Below, in pieces: positions 1 through 7,050 of a DNA stretch of 8,112 nt (position 1 is the stretch's first letter; the number at the start of each line of letters is the position of its first letter). The notes beneath the pieces were generated by a model that searched no databases, was not told the DNA's origin, and saw only the letters and a list, made by a program, of their open reading frames with translations. This DNA is from a virus (Duplodnaviria > Heunggongvirae > Uroviricota > Caudoviricetes), in IMG/VR virus record IMGVR_UViG_2563366903_000016. One strand, 5' to 3'. The position numbers and the translations under genes are program-made.

Positions 1-165
1 GACGGTTTCTTCATCCAGTCTGGCATCAATGCGAATGTCCTCGTTGATGTAGCTCTGAATGGCCTGGCGTAATGCGGTTGGTTGTGCTCTGCCGAACGTT
101 TCAGGATCGATAACCGGTAGCGGTGCGTTCCATGGGTACGCCAGCTGTGCATTGCGGTCACTCAT
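1..165 (-). CDS. hypothetical protein, partial (C-terminus lies beyond the left window edge)
   Basis: ATG at 165-163 (minus) overlaps the TGA stop of the upstream gene (ATGA, 162-165). Frame stays open to position 1, 55 codons in window: MSDRNAQLAYPWNAPLPVIDPETFGRAQPTALRQAIQSYINEDIRIDARLDEETV. Absent from the ORF track, presumably because under 60 aa in-window. No family recognised. Confidence 0.45.
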   Translation of the reverse strand, partial: MSDRNAQLAYPWNAPLPVIDPETFGRAQPTALRQAIQSYINEDIRIDARLDEETV

Positions 166-578
166 GCGTCGTACTCCCCGGCAGTTGCCACCTGAAACGC
201 CGCGCGGTACAGCACGAGAAGGCGCTGGTATTCGCCGATAAAACCTTCTGCGGTGTATATACCTTTCACGGCCACGCTGTGGGTTGTCATTTCCAGAACC
301 AGCGCCATCTCTGATGACGACCAGCTGATGGCGGTACTGTCGGTGCCGTTGATGTGAAATAAACCCAGTCCATCACCATCACCTTTCACGTCCACGCGGT
401 AACGACCGTCCACGGTGAAGGAGAAATCCCCGTATGTGGTGACGCTGCGGGCAGCCTGTTTACAGGCGCGGCGGTAATAGTCGTGCCAGTTGTTCAGGCG
501 GGAAGCCAGCAGGGGATCCACCGCCCACATCCAGTTAAAGAAGTCCTGAATATCTGAAAGTCCCTTAACGCTCTTCAT
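162..578 (-). CDS. hypothetical protein (138 aa)
   Basis: ORF-track ORF with ATG at 578-576 and GGAGG 5 nt upstream (581-590 on + reads gaacctccgg). Stop overlaps the next start (ATGA). Protein-like composition; no family recognised. Confidence 0.6.
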   Translation of the reverse strand: MKSVKGLSDIQDFFNWMWAVDPLLASRLNNWHDYYRRACKQAARSVTTYGDFSFTVDGRYRVDVKGDGDGLGLFHINGTDSTAISWSSSEMALVLEMTTHSVAVKGIYTAEGFIGEYQRLLVLYRAAFQVATAGEYDA

Positions 579-646: not shown

Positions 647-868
647 TTATCGGTGCTGGTTGATGAGGCTTTGCAGTTCTGCCAGGTCTTCGGCCAGATA
701 GCTGAAGACTGCCGCGTAATACCCGGCAGCGATACCGTCGTTAAGTCGGTGTAATACGTTTGACTGCATGATAAAGGCGACAGATGCAGCCCGATGGAGT
801 CTGCGGTTGATTTCGCTGCGGATGTGAAGACGCTCAGCGCGGGCGCGCTGTTGCTTGCGGTTTGCCAT
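647..868 (-). CDS. hypothetical small basic protein (73 aa), possibly nucleic-acid binding
   Basis: ATG at 868 preceded by GAAGAGG about 7 nt upstream. Arg/Lys-rich N-terminus (MANRKQQRARAERLHIRSEINRRLHR) then a hydrophobic/acidic helix-like C-terminus. Function is inferred from composition only. Confidence 0.5.
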   Translation of the reverse strand: MANRKQQRARAERLHIRSEINRRLHRAASVAFIMQSNVLHRLNDGIAAGYYAAVFSYLAEDLAELQSLINQHR

Positions 869-957
869 GGTGTGGCCTCTTCGTTTGTGAATTTTGAAAA
901 CTCACCAACCAGAGGTGGAAAACTCAGGGTGGCGAGACGTACAGGGTTTCCACAACC

Positions 958-993
958 GGCAAACGAAGAAACCGGCCCGACCGAAGTCGGCCC
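958..993 (-). terminator. candidate rho-independent terminator (minus strand)
   Basis: GC-rich stem 974-981 / 986-993 (8 bp, one mismatch) with a 4-nt loop that reads UUCG on the minus-strand RNA, followed on that strand by a U-rich stretch GGUUUCUUCGUUUG (958-973). Confidence 0.3.
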
Positions 994-1047
994 TGTACGC
1001 CCCGCCATAATTCTGACGCGAAAAAGACGTGGCGATACAGTACGCAC

Positions 1048-1089
1048 AAAAAAACCGCTGGCGCGGCTGTGCGCTTCGTTTGTCAGCGG
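1048..1089 (-). terminator. rho-independent terminator (minus strand)
   Basis: Inverted repeat CCGCTG (1055-1060) / CAGCGG (1084-1089) with extra internal GCGC pairing, followed immediately on the minus strand by seven U (A7 on + at 1048-1054). Confidence 0.45.
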
Positions 1090-1165
1090 GGTGGAAATCC
1101 CGGCACCCGTTTTATGAGGTGCAGCGGAAATGTAACCCGACACGACGAGCGCTGGCAAGCGGTTT

Positions 1166-1193
1166 TTGTGTTGCGTGCTGAAGTATGTATAAT
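1166..1193 (+). promoter_or_regulatory. candidate sigma70 promoter for the plus-strand gene 1255-1722
   Basis: Perfect -10 TATAAT at 1188-1193. Best -35 candidate is TTGTGT at 1166-1171 (16-bp spacer). A 7-bp stem-loop (1196-1202 / 1212-1218) sits at the predicted 5' end of the transcript, and GGAGG at 1244-1248 lies 6 nt before the ATG. Confidence 0.4.
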
Positions 1194-1254
1194 CGCGGCG
1201 CAAAAATGGAATGCGCCGAGGGATAGCGGCGTTTATTAACAATGGAGGTTGTTT

Positions 1255-1722
1255 ATGCCTGTTGCTATGGAGCAAGCAGACAAGAAGATTTTTTTTCATC
1301 TGTGGTACAGCTATTGGCTGGAAGAGATGGTTTTCATACTCAGCAATAAAGCCGCTGCCATGTTGCGCGCCGGGGCGCTGATTGCTGCGGTATTGTCCTT
1401 TCTTCTGGTTGGTTTTCCCGTCCTGATGAGCCTTTGGGGGCTGGCGTTTTTTGTTTTTTCCTGGTTTTGCAGCAAGTGTGAATTCGTCGCCGAACTGGCG
1501 TGCTGGCAGAAACAGAGCTACCTTCGTCTGATTACGCAAAGGGATTTCATGAGCACTGAACGCCTGATTGAGCGCATTCTGTATCTGGAAGAAACGAACA
1601 GCGCATCCATGAAGGCGTTTGTCAGGCCCGCAAAAAACAAAGCGAGCGCATCTGTTGGTCTGTCTGCCAGCGAGCATTTGCGTTACTCCGAAAGGTTAAT
1701 CTGCTGGTTGTGCGGCGTCTGA
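1255..1722 (+). CDS. hypothetical membrane protein (155 aa), plus-strand accessory gene
   Basis: ATG at 1255 with GGAGG 6 nt upstream (track start 1249 is an in-frame TTG). Enterobacterial-looking codon usage (CTG, GCG, GAA, CGC rich). Long hydrophobic segment GALIAAVLSFLLVGFPVLMSLWGLAFFVFSWF suggests 1-2 transmembrane helices, then an ~80-aa soluble C-terminal region. Own promoter; 3' end overlaps the convergent gene 1683-2045 by 40 bp. The minus-strand 370-aa ORF over this region looks compositionally non-protein-like. Confidence 0.55.
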   Translation: MPVAMEQADKKIFFHLWYSYWLEEMVFILSNKAAAMLRAGALIAAVLSFLLVGFPVLMSLWGLAFFVFSWFCSKCEFVAELACWQKQSYLRLITQRDFMSTERLIERILYLEETNSASMKAFVRPAKNKASASVGLSASEHLRYSERLICWLCGV

Positions 1723-2254: not shown

Positions 2255-2487
2255 TGCTGACTCCTTTGCCCGGCAGATTTCTCGTTGAGCTGCTTTTTAA
2301 GGGTGGCGATTTCACTTTCCTGATCCTGAATTACCTGAATTGCTTCCATGGTGATCCTCAGTGAGATTGCTGAAGTGATAACGAGCTCTGGTCTTCCAGC
2401 AGCAGCGATAACTTTTGCTGCTTCCTCATGTGCACGGGCGATGAGACGCAATTCCCGCAAAAGCTCTTTGTTGTTTTCGCTATTCAT
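2251..2487 (-). CDS. hypothetical protein (78 aa), helical/coiled-coil-like
   Basis: ATG at 2487 with GGAG upstream; charged, heptad-like sequence (ELLRELRLIARAHEEAAKV ... EIATLKKQLNEK). No family recognised. Confidence 0.5.
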   Translation of the reverse strand: MNSENNKELLRELRLIARAHEEAAKVIAAAGRPELVITSAISLRITMEAIQVIQDQESEIATLKKQLNEKSAGQRSQQ

Positions 2488-2521
2488 TTCCTGACTCCGG
2501 TGTTACTGATTTACTGGTTGT

Positions 2522-3502
2522 TTACGTACTGGCGGTGATTAACATCGCGCTGTAAGTTGCATCTTCCGTTACAGGTCCGCAGTCCGGGCAGTAGCCACCG
2601 CCATGGCGACCGCAGGCGTCGCACTGTCTCAGGGTGGCGATAACCTCCGGTGCTGATTCCCGGGTTCTTGCGCCAACGCTTCGTGGTGCCAGGATGGTGT
2701 TCATCCGGTAACCCTGATAAATGCGTCTGGTTTCCGGTGTGTCGGAATTGGAGATGGTGATGCTGGTCATGCCGCCCGTTTCCTGTGAAAGGCGGTCAAG
2801 CGCTGCCCTCAGACGAACGTGCTCGTCTTCATCGAATGGTTTTCCGTAGGCGGTAAAATTGTCCCGGCCACTGAATTGCAGGTAAGGGGGATCGCAGTAC
2901 ACGCAAAGCGTGTTGCCCATGCCGAACAGGTGACTGGCAGAGTTCAGCGTATCCTTAAAATCTGCGTGGATAAGCAGCGTTCGGGTGCTGTTTGCCTTGT
3001 CTGCAAATGCGCGGATTTCACGCTCAGGGAAGTAGGGCTTGCGGTAGCAGCCGAAAGGCACGTTAAAATCGCCTTTTCCGTTCACGCGGAACAAACTGTT
3101 AAAGCTGTGTCGGTTCAGGTACAAAAACATGGCGGCCAGTCGCAGTTCACGGCGGTCGCTTATTCCCGTTCTGCTGTTCAGGAAGGCATGATTCTCTGCG
3201 TTAAAGGTTTCGCGAATGATGAGATAGTCACCCCTGTTGTTGTGGTTCAGGAACAGGGTTTTCGCCTCGTCGATCAGGCTGTCGGTGTTGTCCCTGGCTT
3301 GCCGGTAGAAATTAATCAGCGCACCATTGGAATCACCCAGGATGTAACGCTTGTAACTGGTGTTCATGAATACCGATGCGCCGCCCACGAACGGCTCAAC
3401 CAGACAGTCGGCTTCTGGCAGGTGCGCCTTCAGTGTGTTCATGATGCGGCTTTTTCCGCCCACCCATTTCAGTGGCGTACCGGATAACAGTTCTTTGCTC
3501 AT
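2522..3502 (-). CDS. dam: DNA adenine (N6) methyltransferase, Dam family, with C-terminal Cys4 zinc-ribbon-like extension
   Basis: Dam-family signature blocks: LKWVGGKS, LVEPFVGGASVF (SAM-binding FxGxG), FLYLNR, FNVPFGCYRKPYFPE, catalytic VYCDPPY, NFTAY. Extra C-terminal tail carries CDACGRHGGGYCPDCG (CxxC-x8-CxxC). AAAGAGG RBS 7 nt upstream of ATG 3502; start overlaps the stop of the upstream ORF (ATGA). Confidence 0.9.
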   Translation of the reverse strand: MSKELLSGTPLKWVGGKSRIMNTLKAHLPEADCLVEPFVGGASVFMNTSYKRYILGDSNGALINFYRQARDNTDSLIDEAKTLFLNHNNRGDYLIIRETFNAENHAFLNSRTGISDRRELRLAAMFLYLNRHSFNSLFRVNGKGDFNVPFGCYRKPYFPEREIRAFADKANSTRTLLIHADFKDTLNSASHLFGMGNTLCVYCDPPYLQFSGRDNFTAYGKPFDEDEHVRLRAALDRLSQETGGMTSITISNSDTPETRRIYQGYRMNTILAPRSVGARTRESAPEVIATLRQCDACGRHGGGYCPDCGPVTEDATYSAMLITAST

Positions 3503-3726
3503 AACGCGGCCTCTTTGTTATAGTTTTCGTGCGTTAATAAATCCCATGACGCCCCGTTGTTTTTGCTCAGCAATCGCCAGCGAAAACCGATTCTTATTAC
3601 CAGGTAGTCGTGGGGTTTTATGCGTGAAAAATTCCGCACGCCGTCGCGGAATAAACGCAGCGATGCGCGGGCTTTTCTTTCCACGTTCAGGGGGGGGCAG
3701 CAACACACATTCAGGATGGCGACCAT
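3499..3726 (-). CDS. hypothetical small protein (75 aa) containing a C8/G8 homopolymer, translationally coupled to dam
   Basis: ATG at 3726 with strong GAGGTGA RBS 6 nt upstream, 9 nt after the exonuclease stop. Stop TGA overlaps the dam ATG (3499-3502). Codons 10-13 read through the homopolymer (TGC CCC CCC CTG). A second long open frame (3518-3706) also crosses the tract. Confidence 0.5.
   Translation of the reverse strand: MVAILNVCCCPPLNVERKARASLRLFRDGVRNFSRIKPHDYLVIRIGFRWRLLSKNNGASWDLLTHENYNKEAAL
3690..3697. repeat. G8/C8 homopolymeric tract (candidate slipped-strand site)
   Basis: Eight consecutive G on the plus strand (3690-3697), inside the 5' part of CDS 3499-3726. Confidence 0.9.
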
Positions 3727-3735
3727 GGCTTCACC

Positions 3736-4317
3736 TCATATGTTCAGGAATGGTGTTGTGAAGCGCTGCCAGATTTCTGACACGACCTTTGCCTGGTAAA
3801 TGGCGTCGCCCAGCGCGGTGTGAGCAATGGCCTCTTTTCCTGATCTGCCTGGCATTTTCCATCCAGTTGATTCAGCCATGGCGATAAGCGGGCGCATACA
3901 GCGCTCGTTCCAGTAGCACCAGGGGATGCTTTTTTCTCCGGCTGTGCGTGTTATGGCGGATTTCAGGATCGGGAAATCGAAGGATGCGCCCTTACACCAT
4001 ATGGTCAGTGAATTGCCCGTGCTTTCGTCATGCATATTGCGTGAAATGAACGCCAGAAATTCGGTTACTGCCGCAAGCTCTGTTCCCTCTGCGTTGCGCA
4101 GGCAGGATCTGGCCTCCACGGATTGTCCGGCCCACCATACGGCGGTTGCTGCATTGACGGTTCCACCGTTGCGTTCTGAATCCACCGGGTCGATGAGTTT
4201 CTCAAACTGTTTGCCCAGCTTTCCGGTGAACGGGTCGAAAAACACCGCGCCAATCGCGAATATGACTGCGTCCGGTCCGGTACCCAATGTTTCGGTGTCG
4301 ATCATGAGATGGTTCAC
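3736..4317 (-). CDS. DEDDh-family 3'-5' exonuclease (DnaQ-like fold)
   Basis: Exo I motif MIDTETLG (D-x-E), Exo II ASFDFPIL, Exo III HTALGDAIYQ (H-x4-D). Likely start is GTG at 4317 (AAGGAG 8 nt upstream; GTGA overlap with the upstream stop at 4314-4316); the alternative is ATG at 4305. Track start 4326 is a GTG directly abutting the SD and is unlikely. Confidence 0.8.
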   Translation of the reverse strand: MNHLMIDTETLGTGPDAVIFAIGAVFFDPFTGKLGKQFEKLIDPVDSERNGGTVNAATAVWWAGQSVEARSCLRNAEGTELAAVTEFLAFISRNMHDESTGNSLTIWCKGASFDFPILKSAITRTAGEKSIPWCYWNERCMRPLIAMAESTGWKMPGRSGKEAIAHTALGDAIYQAKVVSEIWQRFTTPFLNI

Positions 4318-4547
4318 TGTGTGCACTCCTTCTGTTCGGCGTTGTTCGTGAGCGTTGCAATCAGTCGTTCAATGGATGAGCAGGTTTCCTCCGGGGAGGT
4401 GTGCTTCTCTCTCGCTGTGTCAACCAGGTCACGCAGCAATTCGCAGATATGCGCACGCTCGGCTTTTCTTGCGGCCATGCTGATATGTGCATGATGGTTA
4501 GCTGGTCTGGCGGCTATTTCTCTGCCGGGTGATTCGGCTGTTCTCAT
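4314..4547 (-). CDS. hypothetical protein (77 aa)
   Basis: ATG at 4547 with AGGAG 7 nt upstream (track start 4571 is an in-frame TTG). Stop overlaps the exonuclease GTG start. No family recognised. Confidence 0.5.
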   Translation of the reverse strand: MRTAESPGREIAARPANHHAHISMAARKAERAHICELLRDLVDTAREKHTSPEETCSSIERLIATLTNNAEQKECTQ

Positions 4548-4647
4548 TTGTTGACTCCTGAAAAAAGACAAAGGGACCCCGAAGGCATGAATGCCTTAAT
4601 TAATTGCTCGTGTGTTTTCTGGTGTTATTCCGCGCCTGCTTTCGGCT

Positions 4648-4749
4648 TCAGATTATCCCCAGATTCTTCAGTGCTAACCAGATAAGCGCACTCACCTGAA
4701 ATATCACCCATGCAGTAGCGATGGTGAGTATTACTTTTACATTCTTCAT
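4648..4749 (-). CDS. candidate small hydrophobic peptide (33 aa)
   Basis: Untracked ORF ATG 4749 to TGA 4648: MKNVKVILTIATAWVIFQVSALIWLALKNLGII. Begins 12 nt after the stop of the upstream peptide gene; no clear SD, so it would rely on reinitiation. Confidence 0.2.
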   Translation of the reverse strand: MKNVKVILTIATAWVIFQVSALIWLALKNLGII

Positions 4750-4761
4750 AAAGTTTTCGCT

Positions 4762-4887
4762 TTATTTACGGCGTTTGTCGCCAGTAAAAAATAATTCGAT
4801 ATCCTTCAGTGCGTGGATAATTCGCATAATGCCGATTGCCATAAGTACGGAGATAATCAGAATTACCCATGAAAGAAATATGCTCAT
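4762..4887 (-). CDS. candidate small membrane peptide (41 aa)
   Basis: Untracked ORF (under 60 aa): MSIFLSWVILIISVLMAIGIMRIIHALKDIELFFTGDKRRK, one predicted TM helix and a basic C-terminus. ATG 4887 overlaps the TGA of the upstream gene (ATGA); AGGAG 8 nt upstream. Confidence 0.4.
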   Translation of the reverse strand: MSIFLSWVILIISVLMAIGIMRIIHALKDIELFFTGDKRRK

Positions 4888-5126
4888 GCGGCCACTCCTG
4901 TGAAGTAAGGCTCGACAATTTCACCTTCAAACAGTTCTGTCATAATCGACTTTAATTCTTCCAGTGCTTCACGGTCATCGCTGCCCAGCGCGCAGTTGTA
5001 TAGCCCCATAATTGCGCCGCGCAGTGAGTTACGAAGGCTTTCATCCTTAGTTACGCCCCGGTTTGCAAGTTCGAAGTGGTAACGCTGCAACGCGTTATTA
5101 ATAAGTATTTTGTAGGCTTCGATCAT
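4884..5126 (-). CDS. hypothetical protein (80 aa)
   Basis: ATG at 5126 with AAGGA 6 nt upstream; protein-like acidic composition. No family recognised. Confidence 0.55.
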   Translation of the reverse strand: MIEAYKILINNALQRYHFELANRGVTKDESLRNSLRGAIMGLYNCALGSDDREALEELKSIMTELFEGEIVEPYFTGVAA

Positions 5127-5144
5127 GGCTGAATCCTTTATTTA

Positions 5145-5480
5145 TCAGTGCTTGCTTCCCGGATATTGAAAACGCAGGCCGTTGATTAATCTGTCTGCCG
5201 TTCTTAAGGCTTCAAAAAATGTGAAATCCTGTCCGAAGTAATCATCCCCGCGAGTCAGGGTGAAATTAAATCTGCCAGTAACAGGGCTGCGAAAACTTTT
5301 GTGAATAACGATGCCAGTGTCGCCAATCGTCCAGGTGTGCTTGCCGGTTTGTTTTATCGGATGGCCGTCTGGTGTTGCGTGGATTTCAGTGGTTACGGTC
5401 GCACTATTTTTACGGAAGTGCTGGCGTGCAACGTGGCGTTCGGTGTTGTTATTGATGCGTGCATTTCGTTGTTGCTTCAT
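5145..5480 (-). CDS. hypothetical protein (111 aa)
   Basis: ATG at 5480, moderate SD (GAGTGAAGA); basic N-terminus then a predicted beta-rich region. No family recognised. Confidence 0.55.
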   Translation of the reverse strand: MKQQRNARINNNTERHVARQHFRKNSATVTTEIHATPDGHPIKQTGKHTWTIGDTGIVIHKSFRSPVTGRFNFTLTRGDDYFGQDFTFFEALRTADRLINGLRFQYPGSKH

Positions 5481-5505
5481 TCTTCACTCGGTCCTTATGC
5501 GATGA

Positions 5506-5700
5506 TTACAGTGATTCGTCTCTTGTCAGCCTAAAAATCACTTCAGCCATGACTTCGCTAATTACATCGATCCCCTGATCGGTAAGGGCTTCTTTCCAGG
5601 CCTTGCTTGCACGTGTTGGATCCATCCTGCCTGATTGCTGTTGTATGATGATGAAGCGTAAATCGCTGTATAAGTCTTTTGTTTGAGTGGAGTCAGTCAT
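5506..5700 (-). CDS. hypothetical small protein (64 aa; possibly shorter, from internal ATG at 5625)
   Basis: ATG at 5700 with weak AAGG SD. Its start codon overlaps the start codon of the plus-strand gene on the opposite strand (CATG at 5698-5701). The internal ATG at 5625 has an AGGCAGG SD-like sequence. Confidence 0.4.
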   Translation of the reverse strand: MTDSTQTKDLYSDLRFIIIQQQSGRMDPTRASKAWKEALTDQGIDVISEVMAEVIFRLTRDESL

Positions 5701-6136
5701 GTCAATACCTTCAAATCTTGATGTTTTTAATGAAACAGTTGGTAAAACTTTTGCGTTTCTTTATGAAACTTTTCCCCGCAAAGTAACTATTGATATTTGT
5801 GCCTTAACCGGTGTTTCAGAGCTGACTTTTGAAGAAGACCGATCCTCCAGGAGGCAACTAGTTGAAGCTCTTGAGCTTCGCCGTGACTCCATCGCATGGC
5901 TTGTTGATGCTGGTTATGTATCCGCTAAATCTTCTCCTCCGCATTACTTTTCTGATGCGGTTCTCACGGCCAAAGGTCTTGAATTACTTAAGCTTGATCC
6001 AGAGTCACTTAAACAATCATTTGGCGACAAGCTTGTTGATGCAGCCAAGAGTGGCTCAATGGACGCGATAAAAAGCACCGCATCATCCGCTCTTACTACT
6101 GGGTTATCCTTTGCTTTCAAAAGTCTTCTTGGTTGA
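5699..6136 (+). CDS. hypothetical protein (145 aa) on the opposite strand in AT-rich DNA, candidate moron/accessory gene
   Basis: ATG at 5699 with GGAG 6 nt upstream (track start 5687 is an in-frame GTG). Coding region is visibly AT-richer than its flanks (by eye, not computed). Antisense to the early operon and convergent with cox. Candidate -10 TATAAG at 5669-5674; hairpin at 6179-6204 downstream. No family recognised. Confidence 0.55.
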   Translation: MSIPSNLDVFNETVGKTFAFLYETFPRKVTIDICALTGVSELTFEEDRSSRRQLVEALELRRDSIAWLVDAGYVSAKSSPPHYFSDAVLTAKGLELLKLDPESLKQSFGDKLVDAAKSGSMDAIKSTASSALTTGLSFAFKSLLG

Positions 6137-6178
6137 TTGTTGCGCCCCCGCATAACACCAACGATTAGATTATTTACG

Positions 6179-6204
6179 GCGAAATCTCCTGTTGTGGATT
6201 TCGC
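6179..6204. terminator. stem-loop between convergent genes (candidate terminator for the plus-strand gene)
   Basis: Perfect 8-bp inverted repeat GCGAAATC (6179-6186) / GATTTCGC (6197-6204) with a 10-nt loop. On the plus strand it is followed by a T-rich stretch (TGTGTGTTTGATATT, then T6 at 6227-6232); on the minus strand the following sequence is not U-rich. Confidence 0.3.
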
Positions 6205-6217
6205 TGTGTGTTTGATA

Positions 6218-6643
6218 TTAAGCTGCTTTTTTACTGATACGTTTATTCCGTGAACCAGCTGCTGGCTTAAATAAAAAAAGTCGGTTTTCCCATTCGTGCC
6301 ATTCTTGCGGTGCGTTTTCAGTGAGTCGATCGCAGGCTTCATCCCATGCTTTCCGGTTGATGTAAAGTTCGGCGTTTCCGCCAGGCTTGAGAGGGTCCGC
6401 CATGTACACAGCGGGTAATTTCCCTGCTTTTGCCATGCTCACGATGGCGTCAACGGTCTTGCCGATATACATCGCAAACCCTTCTTTTGACAGGAGATGA
6501 GAAGGGTTTTGTGAAAGCCTGATTTCTTGGCGTTCAGGGGCTTTGCGCCCGGTCTTTTGGTGTGCGGTTTCTGGCGCATCTGTCAACTGATCGCACTGTG
6601 TTTCGGCAGGCGATTCAGGCGCGTTTTGAGTGACTTCTTGCAT
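6218..6643 (-). CDS. cox: Cox-like excisionase/transcriptional regulator with an N-terminal acidic extension
   Basis: C-terminal ~85 aa (EGFAMYIGKTVDAIVSMAKAGKLPAVYMADP ... AELYINRKAWDE) match my recollection of P2 Cox (EFAKLIGKSTGAVRRMIDKGKLPVIDMTDP ... AGEYWVYLPAWN). ATG at 6643 has GGAGGA 5 nt upstream; an internal ATG at 6472 also has an SD (GAAGGG) but would remove conserved residues. Divergent from the repressor gene. Confidence 0.65.
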   Translation of the reverse strand: MQEVTQNAPESPAETQCDQLTDAPETAHQKTGRKAPERQEIRLSQNPSHLLSKEGFAMYIGKTVDAIVSMAKAGKLPAVYMADPLKPGGNAELYINRKAWDEACDRLTENAPQEWHEWENRLFLFKPAAGSRNKRISKKAA

Positions 6644-6750: not shown

Positions 6751-7050
6751 ATGTCAACTAACGTAGGTGAAAAAATTAGAATCATGCGTAAGTCTGAAAT
6801 GCTTACACAAGAAAAAATGGCTGAAATTACAGGGCTCACGGTAGCGGCCCTGCGTCAATATGAACAGGGGAGAAATGAGCCAAATCTTGAATCCACAAAA
6901 AAGCTGCTCAAGTCTCCCGTCTTCCGTAAATACCGTGACTGGTTTTTGTTCGATGAGGTCGAACCAAAGGCCGGGCAGGTGGTACCGGCTCTCGCACACA
7001 TTGGGCGAAGCGAATCGGAATCACCCCACTCCGGCAAGAAGACTGGTTAA
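6751..7050 (+). CDS. C: P2 C-type immunity repressor (99 aa)
   Basis: Length and sequence match my recollection of P2 C: EKIRIMRKSE, ITGLTVAALRQYEQGR (HTH region), and C-terminal PALAHIGRSESESPHSGKKTG against P2 PALAHFGQNETTSPHSGQKTG. Sits immediately upstream of int on the same strand, as in P2. Confidence 0.85.
   Translation: MSTNVGEKIRIMRKSEMLTQEKMAEITGLTVAALRQYEQGRNEPNLESTKKLLKSPVFRKYRDWFLFDEVEPKAGQVVPALAHIGRSESESPHSGKKTG

What the first reader, a model, noticed from the sequence alone, without database searches (positions are those of the whole stretch)
958..1089. Two stacked minus-strand terminators separate the early operon from the left gene block
Two GC-rich hairpins, each followed by a U-rich run on the minus strand (A7 at 1048-1054 on +, and a UUCG-loop hairpin at 974-993), lie downstream of the operon end and of the region antisense to the membrane gene. 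They would stop early read-through before genes 647-868 and 162-578, which implies the left block has its own promoter in 869-957 and is separately regulated.
Basis: seen in the sequence. Interest (0 to 1): 0.35.

Follow-up and report, generated by a model that had tools for sequence, protein, structure and literature searches.

The report
Phage immunity RNAs, not stacked terminators
The two hairpins belong to two known small phage RNAs, IsrK and C4, which form the regulatory leader of an anti-repressor and replication operon in a P2-like E. coli prophage; only the first hairpin is a real terminator, so this is a known kind of RNA switch that genome annotation misses here.

Summary
Rfam finds two complete minus-strand sRNA genes above the curated thresholds. 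IsrK lies at 1122..1048 (64.1 bits) and C4 antisense RNA at 1012..925 (82.1 bits). Hairpin 1 with its U7 run is IsrK's own intrinsic terminator. The UUCG hairpin is the first inner hairpin of C4, and its "U-rich run" is the loop of C4's second hairpin. That loop (b') and a second unpaired stretch (a') are complementary to two pairs of sites. One pair lies in IsrK (a1, b1). The other lies just downstream (a2, b2), with b2 covering the Shine-Dalgarno sequence of ORF 868..647. In 29 distinct loci, with 13 a' and 19 b' variants, these sites change together with the C4 sequence. A conserved promoter (TTGCCA-18-TACATT, 1158..1129) lies 7 nt upstream of IsrK's first base; 869-957 holds no credible promoter. 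ORF 868..647 is a homologue of the P4 epsilon derepression protein. Next come ORF138 and the P2-type replication endonuclease gene. Phage P4, N15 and Gifsy-1 have the same IsrK-then-C4 order. This is a new, unannotated member of a known RNA immunity system. The left block is indeed separately regulated, but not in the way proposed.

The parts
1129..1158 (-). Promoter of the module (P-isrK): -35 TTGCCA at 1158..1153, 18-nt spacer, -10 TACATT at 1134..1129. The predicted start is at 1122, which is IsrK nucleotide 1.
   Evidence: (9 of 12 matches, the only decent minus-strand candidate nearby). The -35 is identical in 4 of 6 related modules and the -10 in 5 of 6, and homology begins just upstream of the -35. 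Its -35 context aligns with the P4 sequence upstream of P4's isrK.
1048..1122 (-). IsrK-family sRNA, equivalent to the seqA/a1b1-bearing leader. It has hairpin 1 (1122..1103), hairpin 2 with a1 in its loop, a linker holding b1, and a terminator.
   Evidence: Rfam RF01394, 64.1 bits (gathering score 50), E = 2.7e-12, model positions 1-77 of 77. Compensatory changes in hairpin 1 and a conserved terminator in 16 homologues.
1091..1097 (-). Site a1 (UUUCCAC), in the loop of IsrK hairpin 2, complementary to a' of C4.
   Evidence: inverted repeat I4. It co-varies with a' in L027, L118 and N15. An a1 match of at least 7 nt is present in 100% of 29 loci, against 5% in cross-locus controls.
1074..1082 (-). 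Site b1 (CAAACGAAG), in the bulge of the 5' arm of the IsrK terminator hairpin, complementary to b' of C4.
   Evidence: inverted repeat I5; direct repeat D2 with b2. It co-varies with b' in P88 and L113.
1048..1089 (-).
   Evidence: The hairpin and T-run are conserved in all 16 IsrK homologues, including those of P4, N15 and the Gifsy-1 type.
925..1012 (-). C4-family antisense RNA (the P4 CI / P1 c4 type). Closing stem 1007..991 / 946..930. Hairpin 2 at 976..955.
   Evidence: Rfam RF01695, 82.1 bits (gathering score 45), E = 1.7e-15, model positions 1-87 of 87. MFE -48.9 kcal/mol with that fold. 17 of 27 consensus pairs show compensatory changes in 28 sequences.
960..969 (-). b' recognition loop of C4 (UCUUCGUUUG).
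   Evidence: It is complementary to b1 (9 nt) and b2 (10 nt, or 14 bp if two G-U pairs and two stem bases are counted, by reading the sequence).
947..953 (-). a' recognition segment of C4 (GUGGAAA), unpaired between hairpin 2 and the closing stem.
   Evidence: It is complementary to a1 and a2 (7 nt each).
915..921 (-). Site a2 (UUUCCAC), 4-10 nt downstream of the C4 3' end.
   Evidence: Its position is conserved (+8 to +15 in related loci) and its sequence co-varies with a'.
876..887 (-). Site b2 (CAAACGAAGA, 887..878), overlapping the Shine-Dalgarno sequence AAGAGG (881..876) of ORF73, whose ATG is at 868.
   Evidence: inverted repeat I1, direct repeat D2. C4 nt 39-70 against this leader gives -33.5 kcal/mol, versus -17.3 +/- 3.3 in 500 shuffles, none as good. 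It co-varies with b'.
647..868 (-). ORF73, a homologue of the P4 epsilon (helper derepression / anti-repressor) protein. It is the first gene controlled by the leader.
   Evidence: Pfam PF25738 Derepression, 27.9 bits (cut-off 27). BLASTP against P4 epsilon: 34% identity over 50 aa, E = 1e-8. P4 epsilon scores 170 bits on the same family. 60-73% identical proteins in P88-like phages are annotated 'derepression protein'.
162..578 (-). ORF138, a conserved phage protein of unknown function (PHROG 3237). Its stop codon overlaps the start of the P2-type replication endonuclease gene, which runs off the left end of the window.
   Evidence: (L001: CDS 6162..6578, followed by replication endonuclease 3652..6165).

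Best explanation
Window 860-1160 (minus strand) is the RNA leader of a P4/P1-type anti-immunity module in a P2-like prophage.

A sigma-70 promoter (1158..1129) starts transcription at 1122. The first ~75 nt form IsrK, which carries two decoy sites (a1, b1) and ends in an intrinsic terminator.

Transcripts that read through continue into C4 (1012..925). C4 is a tRNA-like three-helix RNA and is probably cut out of the precursor.

The two exposed segments of C4 (b' loop and a') pair with a2 and b2 on the same operon's mRNA. The b2 site covers the Shine-Dalgarno sequence of ORF73. C4 therefore blocks translation of the epsilon-like anti-repressor. By polarity it probably also blocks expression of ORF138 and the replication endonuclease.

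C4 can pair equally well with a1 and b1 in IsrK. This gives two further effects, both inferred from relatives. First, C4 modulates termination at the IsrK terminator, which would autoregulate C4 as at P4 t1. Second, free IsrK titrates C4 and so switches the operon on, as in Gifsy-1.

Shown here: the identity of both RNAs, their structure, the four complementary sites and their co-variation, the promoter position, and the downstream genes. Inferred: RNA processing, translational block, polarity, termination control and titration.
For: - Rfam hits for both RNAs are above the gathering score and cover the full model length.
- The C4 fold is supported by 17 of 27 covarying pairs.
- The IsrK hairpins and the terminator with its U-run are conserved in 16 homologues.
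- Exact complementarity: b'-b2 10 nt, b'-b1 9 nt, a'-a2 7 nt, a'-a1 7 nt, in the correct antiparallel order. The repeat finder recovered these independently.
- Duplex energies are -33.5 and -34.6 kcal/mol. Shuffles gave -17.3 and -21.1 +/- 3.3, with 0 of 500 and 1 of 500 as good.
- In 29 non-identical loci with 24 a'/b' combinations, each locus's own flanks hold complements of at least 7 nt at a1, b1, a2 and b2 in 100, 69, 93 and 83% of loci. Cross-locus controls give 5, 7, 1 and 6%. Positions are fixed.
- Three-way compensatory changes are visible in P88, L113, L027, L118 and N15.
- The promoter is conserved and homology begins at it.
- IsrK lies directly upstream of C4 in 19 of the 28 related loci with a C4 that were searched with Rfam, and also in P4 and Gifsy-1.
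- Rfam itself holds RF03163, 'a1, b1 targets of C4 antisense RNA', which overlaps the isrK hits.
- ORF73 is an epsilon homologue.
- The order IsrK-C4-derepression-X-replication endonuclease recurs in P88 and in another prophage.
- Experimental precedent in Gifsy-1 (PMC4825925): the isrK promoter drives the downstream anti-repressor gene by terminator read-through, and trans IsrK activates its translation.
Against: - There are no expression data for this prophage. RNA ends, processing, read-through frequency and the effect of C4 on ORF73 are all inferred.
- The ORF73 match to the Pfam family is only just above the cut-off (27.9 versus 27).
- ORF138 has no known function.
- The relative weight of translational block, termination control and IsrK titration cannot be decided from sequence.
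- Here a convergent + strand gene (1255..1722) separates the module from the early operon, unlike in P88, so the contribution of early-promoter read-through is unknown.
- The Gifsy-1 authors interpret the C4 region as a translated orf45. A coding role for that region is not excluded.
Confidence: 0.85

Rival explanations
1. Two independent stacked intrinsic terminators end the early operon and the antisense transcription of the membrane gene. The left genes are driven by their own promoter in 869-957.
For: Hairpin 1 with U7 is a good terminator. It would also stop any minus-strand transcript arriving from the early operon. In P88 and L126 the module lies co-directionally between the early genes and the replication gene. 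The simple scan also flags a hairpin-plus-T site at 984..972.
Against: The second hairpin is buried in the C4 fold, inside a 17-bp closing stem (-48.3 kcal/mol). Its U-run is interrupted and is the conserved recognition loop that co-varies with its targets. Region 869-957 holds no sigma-70-like site better than 7 of 12 and is filled by the C4 3' strand, a2, b2 and the SD. A conserved promoter lies upstream of IsrK instead. Terminator-like hits in the window are not enriched over shuffles.
Confidence: 0.07
2. The parts are the same, but the main action of C4 is on transcription and not on translation (the P4 t1/t4 and N15 model). On this view, pairing of C4 with a1/b1 and a2/b2 on the nascent RNA forces termination at the IsrK terminator and in the leader. 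RBS occlusion would be secondary.
For: The b1 site sits inside the 5' arm of the terminator hairpin. The module is homologous in layout to P4's leader, with isrK, c4-a1b1 and C4 hits in the same order. PMC4825925 summarises that P4 CI RNA causes premature termination by pairing with seqA and seqC. From my own knowledge, not checked here: Briani et al. 2000 reported CI- and seqA-dependent termination at t1, between PLE and cI.
Against: The b2 site overlaps the SD in this locus, and b2 ends in GGA or AGGA in most loci. That is the signature of the P1-type translational block. No hairpin-plus-U terminator follows a2/b2, and the leader fold is not better than shuffles (z = -1.36).
Confidence: 0.35
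3. The hairpins are incidental features of a protein-coding region. The candidates are the RefSeq-annotated + strand ORF (929..1117) or a minus-strand 'Ash/orf45'-like ORF. On this view one of these is the functional product and the RNA matches are secondary.
For: PGAP annotates a hypothetical protein on 929..1117 (+). It also annotates an 'ash family protein' over the same region in a relative. Pfam PF10554 matches such translations in P4 and L126. The Gifsy-1 study detected a tagged orf45 product (PMC4825925).
Against: The window ORFs have no family match. Variation follows base-pairing rules and three-way complementarity, not codon structure. A 1-nt indel in L027 falls inside the + strand ORF. 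Both RNA models score far above threshold.
Confidence: 0.05

Closest known systems
Satellite phage P4 immunity region (PLE - seqA/t1 - CI RNA - seqC ... epsilon ... alpha)
   Same: The same two Rfam families occur in the same order and on the same strand: isrK at 8692..8615 and C4 at 8507..8420, with a c4-a1b1 hit just under its gathering score (44.1 v 46.7 bits). The -35 context GCTTGCC aligns. The a1/b1 and a2/b2 sites sit in equivalent places, with b2 on an AGGAGG sequence (by reading). A homologous epsilon protein lies downstream, and a replication gene lies further downstream in the same operon.
   Different: The a'/b' specificity sequences differ, so no cross-immunity is expected. The element here is a full P2-like prophage with int, C, Cox, portal and terminase genes, not a satellite. 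The epsilon-like ORF directly follows C4, whereas P4 has about 245 nt between them. The replication gene is the P2 gpA-type endonuclease, not the alpha primase. ORF138 is unrelated to P4 orf151.
Phage P1/P7 immI operon (c4 antisense RNA - icd - ant)
   Same: The same RNA family (RF01695). The a1,b1 - c4(a',b') - a2,b2 layout is the same, with the target sites on the same transcript. PMC7313666 / bioRxiv 2020.03.17.996009 summarises Citron and Schuster 1990 in these terms. The b2 site lies over the RBS of the first small ORF, and an anti-repressor is the controlled function.
   Different: The controlled proteins are not Icd or Ant homologues. Pfam finds only the epsilon-type family for ORF73 and nothing for ORF138. 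Here the a1/b1 region is a discrete IsrK-type RNA with its own terminator.
Salmonella Gifsy-1 isrK-orf45-anrP locus (Hershko-Shalev et al. 2016, PMC4825925)
   Same: IsrK is followed 25 nt later by a C4-family RNA and then by an anti-repressor gene, all on one strand. The isrK promoter drives the downstream genes by terminator read-through. IsrK is complementary to the downstream RNA (STnc1160), and IsrK supplied in trans activates translation.
   Different: Gifsy-1 is lambdoid. Its anti-repressor AnrP is a different protein, and its output is the Q antiterminator. The authors describe the C4 region as orf45, not as a C4 RNA. Here the output includes an epsilon-like protein and a replication gene.
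Phage N15 anti-immunity locus (gene 32-30 region)
   Same: isrK at 2673..2598 and C4 at 2572..2485, upstream of small ORFs. The stem-loop annotated in N15 as a 'putative rho-independent terminator' (2597..2619) lies at the 3' end of the isrK hit, i.e. it is the IsrK terminator. The a and b sites co-vary. From my own knowledge, not checked here: Ravin et al. 1999 showed that a small processed RNA controls the N15 anti-repressor operon.
   Different: The downstream proteins differ, and N15 is a linear plasmid prophage.
Rfam RF03163 c4-a1b1 motif (Weinberg et al. 2010, PMC2864571)
   Same: It describes the a1 and b1 targets of C4 as a structured element upstream of C4. It overlaps the 5' half of the isrK hits in L022, L045, L055, P4 and Gifsy-1.
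   Different: The window copy did not reach E <= 1 for this model and is captured by the isrK model instead.

Membership tests
Rfam RF01394 isrK | Covariance-model score at or above the gathering threshold over the full model. | tested here: met
   64.1 bits against 50, positions 1-77 of 77, E = 2.7e-12.
Rfam RF01394 isrK | Two 5' hairpins, then a 3' hairpin followed by a U-run (Rho-independent terminator). | tested here: met
   alignment. MFE -24.7 kcal/mol. Terminator hairpin -13.8 kcal/mol plus U7. Conserved in 16 homologues, with compensatory changes in hairpin 1.
Rfam RF01394 isrK | Expressed as a discrete Hfq-binding sRNA of about 75 nt, with partial terminator read-through. | not testable with these tools
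   Shown only for Gifsy-1 (PMC4825925).
Rfam RF01695 C4 antisense RNA | Covariance-model score at or above the gathering threshold over the full model. | tested here: met
   82.1 bits against 45, positions 1-87 of 87, E = 1.7e-15.
Rfam RF01695 C4 antisense RNA | A long closing stem that encloses a cUUCGg hairpin and a GCCGG/CCGGU hairpin. | tested here: met
   The MFE fold matches. 17 of 27 pairs have compensatory changes in 28 sequences.
Rfam RF01695 C4 antisense RNA | Two exposed segments (a', b') complementary to a2/b2 downstream and a1/b1 upstream on the same transcript, with b2 at an RBS. | tested here: met
   Co-variation across 29 loci.
Rfam RF01695 C4 antisense RNA | Excised from the operon transcript. 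RNase P cutting at the 5' end is from my own knowledge of Hartmann et al. 1995, not checked here. | not testable with these tools
   Only the sequence features are visible: an acceptor-like stem followed by GCCACCC.
P4-type immunity / derepression cassette | Promoter, then seqA-bearing leader with terminator, then CI RNA, then seqC, in that order. | tested here: met
   P4 itself gives isrK and C4 hits above their gathering scores, plus a c4-a1b1 hit just below its own (44.1 v 46.7 bits), in that order. The window is aligned to it.
P4-type immunity / derepression cassette | An epsilon (helper derepression) protein encoded downstream. | tested here: met
   PF25738, 27.9 bits (cut-off 27). BLASTP against P4 epsilon, E = 1e-8.
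P4-type immunity / derepression cassette | Satellite gene set (sid, delta, psu, alpha primase). | tested here: not met
   The element is a P2-like prophage with Cox, C, integrase, gpA-type replication endonuclease, portal and terminase genes. It works like the P4 leader but is not a P4-like satellite.
P1 immI operon | icd and ant genes downstream of c4. | tested here: not met
   ORF73 matches only the epsilon-type family. ORF138 matches no Pfam or NCBIfam family.
   Hairpin at -13.8 kcal/mol with U7 directly adjacent. Conserved.
   The hairpin is nested in C4's closing stem. The run GGUUUCUUCGUUU is interrupted and forms the stem and loop of the next hairpin.

The most novel reading that the evidence does not exclude
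A large group of P2-like prophages carries this module. A module at least 80% covered by window 860-1165 is present in 1144 of 5426 complete E. coli genomes, and the three contexts inspected are all P2-like. These phages would place an epsilon-type anti-repressor and their replication endonuclease gene under a P4-type IsrK/C4 RNA switch.

That would mean the immunity and derepression cassette of satellite P4 shares ancestry with a cassette of helper-type phages. This runs against the published view that delta is the only P4-specific gene with clear P2-like homologues (PMC8628076).

It would also mean that the freely re-assorting a and b sites (13 x 19 variants seen) form a combinatorial RNA immunity code that decides which co-resident phages and satellites silence or derepress one another.
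Probability: 0.45. Interest if true: 0.5.

Novelty: new member of a known kind. Interest (0 to 1): 0.3.

Why it matters
For this window, the result replaces a structural guess with a defined regulatory device. The leader decides whether the prophage's anti-repressor and replication genes are made, so it is central to the lysis-lysogeny switch and to superinfection immunity.

More broadly, the module is common in E. coli, yet RefSeq annotates it as hypothetical or 'ash family' protein and not as RNA. Prophage regulation and P4-like satellite surveys that rely on those protein calls can therefore be misled.

The a/b co-variation data also give a ready-made table of specificities for predicting cross-immunity between phages and satellites.

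Tried and rejected
- A LexA box (CTGT-N8-ACAG, up to 1 mismatch) near the module: only one match in the window, at 1750, which is no more than chance. There is no evidence of direct SOS control.
Rejected.
- A second terminator downstream of C4 in the leader 926..855: its fold is no better than shuffles (z = -1.36). Not supported.
- ORF138 as a homologue of P4 orf151: no similarity. It also has no tblastn match in the phage collection and no Pfam or NCBIfam family. Function left open.
- tblastn of ORF73 found only P88-like phages, not P4. The relation to epsilon needed the profile and a pairwise comparison.
- The + strand ORF 929..1117 and the minus-strand ORFs over C4 as real genes: no family support.
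- Of the 122 pattern matches in the loci held after the 18-nt viral-contig scan, most were chance hits in unrelated sequence. Only 29 distinct sequences folded as C4 and were used.
- I did not run the large protein-database searches or structure prediction. The question is about RNA elements and those searches would not change the verdict.
Full report
OBSERVATION

On the minus strand, a hairpin CCGCUG...CAGCGG at 1089..1055 (dG -13.8 kcal/mol) is followed directly by U7 at 1054..1048. A hairpin GGGCCGAC-UUCG-GUCGGGCC at 993..974 (dG -12.2) is followed by GGUUUCUUCGUUU. Such patterns alone mean little here. The consensus scan found 16 terminator-like sites in the window against 10.7 +/- 3.4 in shuffles.

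WHAT IT IS

A scan of the whole window against Rfam gave exactly two matches, both on the minus strand, both over the full model length and both above the curated thresholds.
- isrK (RF01394) at 1122..1048: 64.1 bits, gathering score 50, E = 2.7e-12.
- C4 antisense RNA (RF01695) at 1012..925: 82.1 bits, gathering score 45, E = 1.7e-15.

The 'U-rich run' is the 5' strand and loop of C4's second hairpin. Both inner hairpins are enclosed by a 17-bp closing stem (1007..991 / 946..930). The whole fold is -48.3 to -48.9 kcal/mol, and the stem was found independently as inverted repeat I2.

In an alignment of 28 C4 sequences from diverse phages, 17 of 27 consensus pairs show compensatory changes. In 16 IsrK homologues, hairpin 1 covaries, and the terminator hairpin with its T-run is conserved in every sequence.

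TARGET SITES

C4 exposes two segments: the loop b' (UCUUCGUUUG, 969..960) and a' (GUGGAAA, 953..947). Exact complements occur four times, in the correct antiparallel order.

| Site | Sequence | Coordinates | Location |
|---|---|---|---|
| a1 | UUUCCAC | 1097..1091 | loop of IsrK hairpin 2 |
| b1 | CAAACGAAG | 1082..1074 | bulge of the 5' arm of the IsrK terminator |
| a2 | UUUCCAC | 921..915 | just after the C4 3' end |
| b2 | CAAACGAAGA | 887..878 | overlaps the Shine-Dalgarno AAGAGG (881..876) of ORF 868..647 |

The repeat finder recovered the same relations without prior knowledge (D2, I1, I4, I5). Predicted duplexes of C4 nt 39-70 are as follows.
- With the leader: -33.5 kcal/mol. Shuffles gave -17.3 +/- 3.3, and 0 of 500 were as good.
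- With IsrK: -34.6 kcal/mol. Shuffles gave -21.1 +/- 3.3, and 1 of 500 was as good.

COMPARATIVE TEST

A scan of viral contigs with an 18-nt pattern from the C4 core returned 120 stretches. Together with other loci already held, 29 non-identical sequences fold as C4. They carry 13 different a' and 19 different b' sequences in 24 combinations.

Each locus's own flanks contain complements of at least 7 nt in most cases. When a'/b' are tested against the flanks of loci with different a'/b', matches are rare.

| Site | Own flanks | Cross-locus control |
|---|---|---|
| a1 | 100% | 5% |
| b1 | 69% | 7% |
| a2 | 93% | 1% |
| b2 | 83% | 6% |

Positions are fixed. The a1 site lies 14-17 nt upstream of b1 wherever b1 was clearly found. 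The a2 site lies at +8 to +15 and b2 at about +32 to +46 on the coordinate scale. Most b2 sites end in GGA or AGGA, which places them on a ribosome-binding site.

An alignment of the window with P88, three metagenomic relatives and N15 shows three-way compensatory changes. The b1, b' and b2 sites change together in P88 and L113. The a1, a' and a2 sites change together in L027, L118 and N15.

PROMOTER

The only good minus-strand sigma-70 match nearby is TTGCCA-18-TACATT at 1158..1129. Its -10 ends 7 nt upstream of IsrK nucleotide 1 (1122).
- The -35 is identical in four of the six aligned modules and the -10 in five of six.
- Homology between modules begins just upstream of the -35.
- Its -35 context aligns with the P4 sequence upstream of P4's isrK.

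That stretch is fully occupied by the C4 3' strand, a2, b2 and the SD.

GENES UNDER CONTROL AND CONTEXT

The window is 99% identical to a prophage of E. coli DETEC-S792, integrated next to chpSB-ppa. The prophage has a tyrosine integrase, a C-type HTH repressor, Cox, a 3'-5' exonuclease, Dam and DUF4406 genes, and further left a replication endonuclease, portal and terminase. It is therefore a P2-like phage.

ORF 868..647 (73 aa) belongs to the Pfam 'Derepression' family: 27.9 bits, just above the cut-off of 27. P4 epsilon scores 170 bits on the same family. The two proteins align at 34% identity over 50 residues (E = 1e-8). P4 epsilon inactivates the helper phage repressor (PMC8628076).

ORF 578..162 is a conserved phage protein of unknown function. 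Its stop codon overlaps the start of the gpA-type replication endonuclease.

The order IsrK-C4-derepression-X-replication endonuclease is the same in phage P88 and in another E. coli prophage. In both of these the module lies co-directionally inside the early operon. In this window a convergent + strand gene (1255..1722) intervenes.

RELATION TO KNOWN SYSTEMS

- P4 gives isrK (8692..8615), c4-a1b1 (just under its gathering score) and C4 (8507..8420) hits in its immunity leader, upstream of epsilon and alpha.
- N15 has isrK then C4. Its annotated 'putative rho-independent terminator' lies at the 3' end of the isrK hit, i.e. it is the IsrK terminator.
- In Gifsy-1, the system in which IsrK was studied, the order is antQ, isrK (34316..34240), C4 (34214..34131), anrP, isrJ. 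The 'orf45/STnc1160' region of that paper therefore coincides with a C4-family RNA.
- That paper (PMC4825925) shows four things. The isrK promoter drives the downstream anti-repressor gene through terminator read-through. The long RNA is translationally silent. IsrK supplied in trans activates it. IsrK is complementary to STnc1160. The authors themselves compare IsrK with P4 seqA.
- Rfam holds a family for 'a1, b1 targets of C4' (RF03163; listed in PMC2864571), and it overlaps the isrK hits.
- IsrK lies directly upstream of C4 in 19 of the 28 related loci with a C4 that were searched with Rfam. The tandem pair has also been noted in APSE phages and Xylella.

MECHANISM

Shown here: the RNAs, their folds, the four sites, the co-variation, the promoter position and the gene order.

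Inferred from P1, P4, N15 and Gifsy-1:
- Transcripts from 1122 mostly stop at 1048 and yield IsrK.
- Read-through yields C4, probably by processing. RNase P cleavage is from my own knowledge of P1 c4 and was not checked here.
- C4 pairs with a2 and b2 and occludes the SD of the epsilon-like gene. Downstream genes, including gpA, would be silenced by polarity. The translational-repression and Rho model for P1 is from my own knowledge.
- Pairing with a1 and b1 would let C4 set termination at the IsrK terminator, which is autoregulation as at P4 t1. This is also from my own knowledge of Briani et al. 2000.
- Pairing with a1 and b1 would also let free IsrK titrate C4 and turn the operon on (the Gifsy-1 result).

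I cannot rank these last two effects from sequence.

The hairpins are real. Hairpin 1 is a terminator, and the left block is separately regulated. However, hairpin 2 is not a terminator, the two hairpins are parts of two sRNA genes that form the left block's own leader, and the promoter lies upstream of IsrK and not in 869-957.

NOVELTY

Both RNA families, their pairing logic and their role upstream of anti-repressor genes are known. This copy is a new and unannotated member. RefSeq shows only a + strand hypothetical CDS over it.

The modestly new aspect is the context. A P4-type leader and an epsilon homologue sit in front of the replication gene of P2-like prophages, and a module of this type is present in 1144 of 5426 complete E. 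coli genomes.

Noticed in passing
window 929-1117 (+): RefSeq/PGAP annotates a 62-aa 'hypothetical protein' CDS here (WP_024192890.1 in the 99%-identical genome), antisense to both IsrK and C4, and annotates no ncRNA. It has no Pfam or NCBIfam match, and a related module has a 1-nt indel inside it. It is likely a spurious call.
   Followed up: partly
L126 3566-3820 (-); L125 (P4) 8330-8521 (-): PGAP's 'ash family protein' pseudogene in a related prophage lies exactly over IsrK-C4. Pfam PF10554 (Phage_ASH) matches P4's old 'cI protein' ORF over the stretch that contains the CI/C4 RNA. A survey of P4-like satellites used PF10554 as its 'epsilon' marker (PMC8628076), whereas the real epsilon protein matches PF25738. 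The Ash protein family may largely be a translation of conserved RNA genes.
   Followed up: partly
L127 (Gifsy-1) 34131-34316 (-): In the experimental IsrK model, a C4-family RNA (69 bits) lies 25 nt downstream of isrK. This is where the 2016 paper places orf45/STnc1160, and that paper does not describe the region as C4.
   Followed up: partly
L060 3165-3716 (+); L105 266-463 (-) and 8633-8720 (-): Some viral contigs carry two copies. L060 has two complete isrK-C4 modules in tandem, with different a'/b' sequences. L105 has two C4 genes about 8 kb apart, of which only one has an isrK hit upstream.
   Followed up: no
loci L045, L051, L066, L022, L082 and others: The a' and b' recognition sequences assort independently. 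Some loci share a' but differ in b', and others the reverse. Their a1/b1 and a2/b2 sites follow. This suggests a modular, recombining specificity code.
   Followed up: partly
window 1046-1062 and 1155-1171: A 17-nt inverted repeat (88% complementary). The A-tract plus CCGC just upstream of the -35 of the IsrK promoter mirrors the 3' arm and T-tract of the IsrK terminator. It could be an UP-element-like A-tract, or a small + strand terminator-like hairpin (CGCTGGCAAGCG followed by T5). The sequence is conserved in P88, L027 and L118.
   Followed up: no
window 1166-1722 (+): A + strand gene (1255..1722, 155 aa, hydrophobic, PHROG 6315, unknown function) lies convergent to the early operon and overlaps the 3' end of the DUF4406 gene by 40 nt. 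By eye, a TTGTGT-16-TATAAT promoter (1166-1193) sits back-to-back with the IsrK promoter. P88 and L126 have no + strand gene at this position, so it looks like an inserted moron.
   Followed up: no
window 860-1165; E. coli genomes: Matches covering at least 80% of this 306-bp module occur in 1144 of 5426 complete E. coli genomes, mostly at 80-90% identity, with up to 4 copies per genome. Co-resident copies could cross-regulate if their a/b types coincide.
   Followed up: no
window 6751-7050 (+) and PMC5285337: P88, which carries the same module, was recovered after mitomycin C treatment of its lysogen. No LexA box was found in this window, so how DNA damage would reach the IsrK/C4 switch, if it does, is open.
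   Followed up: partly
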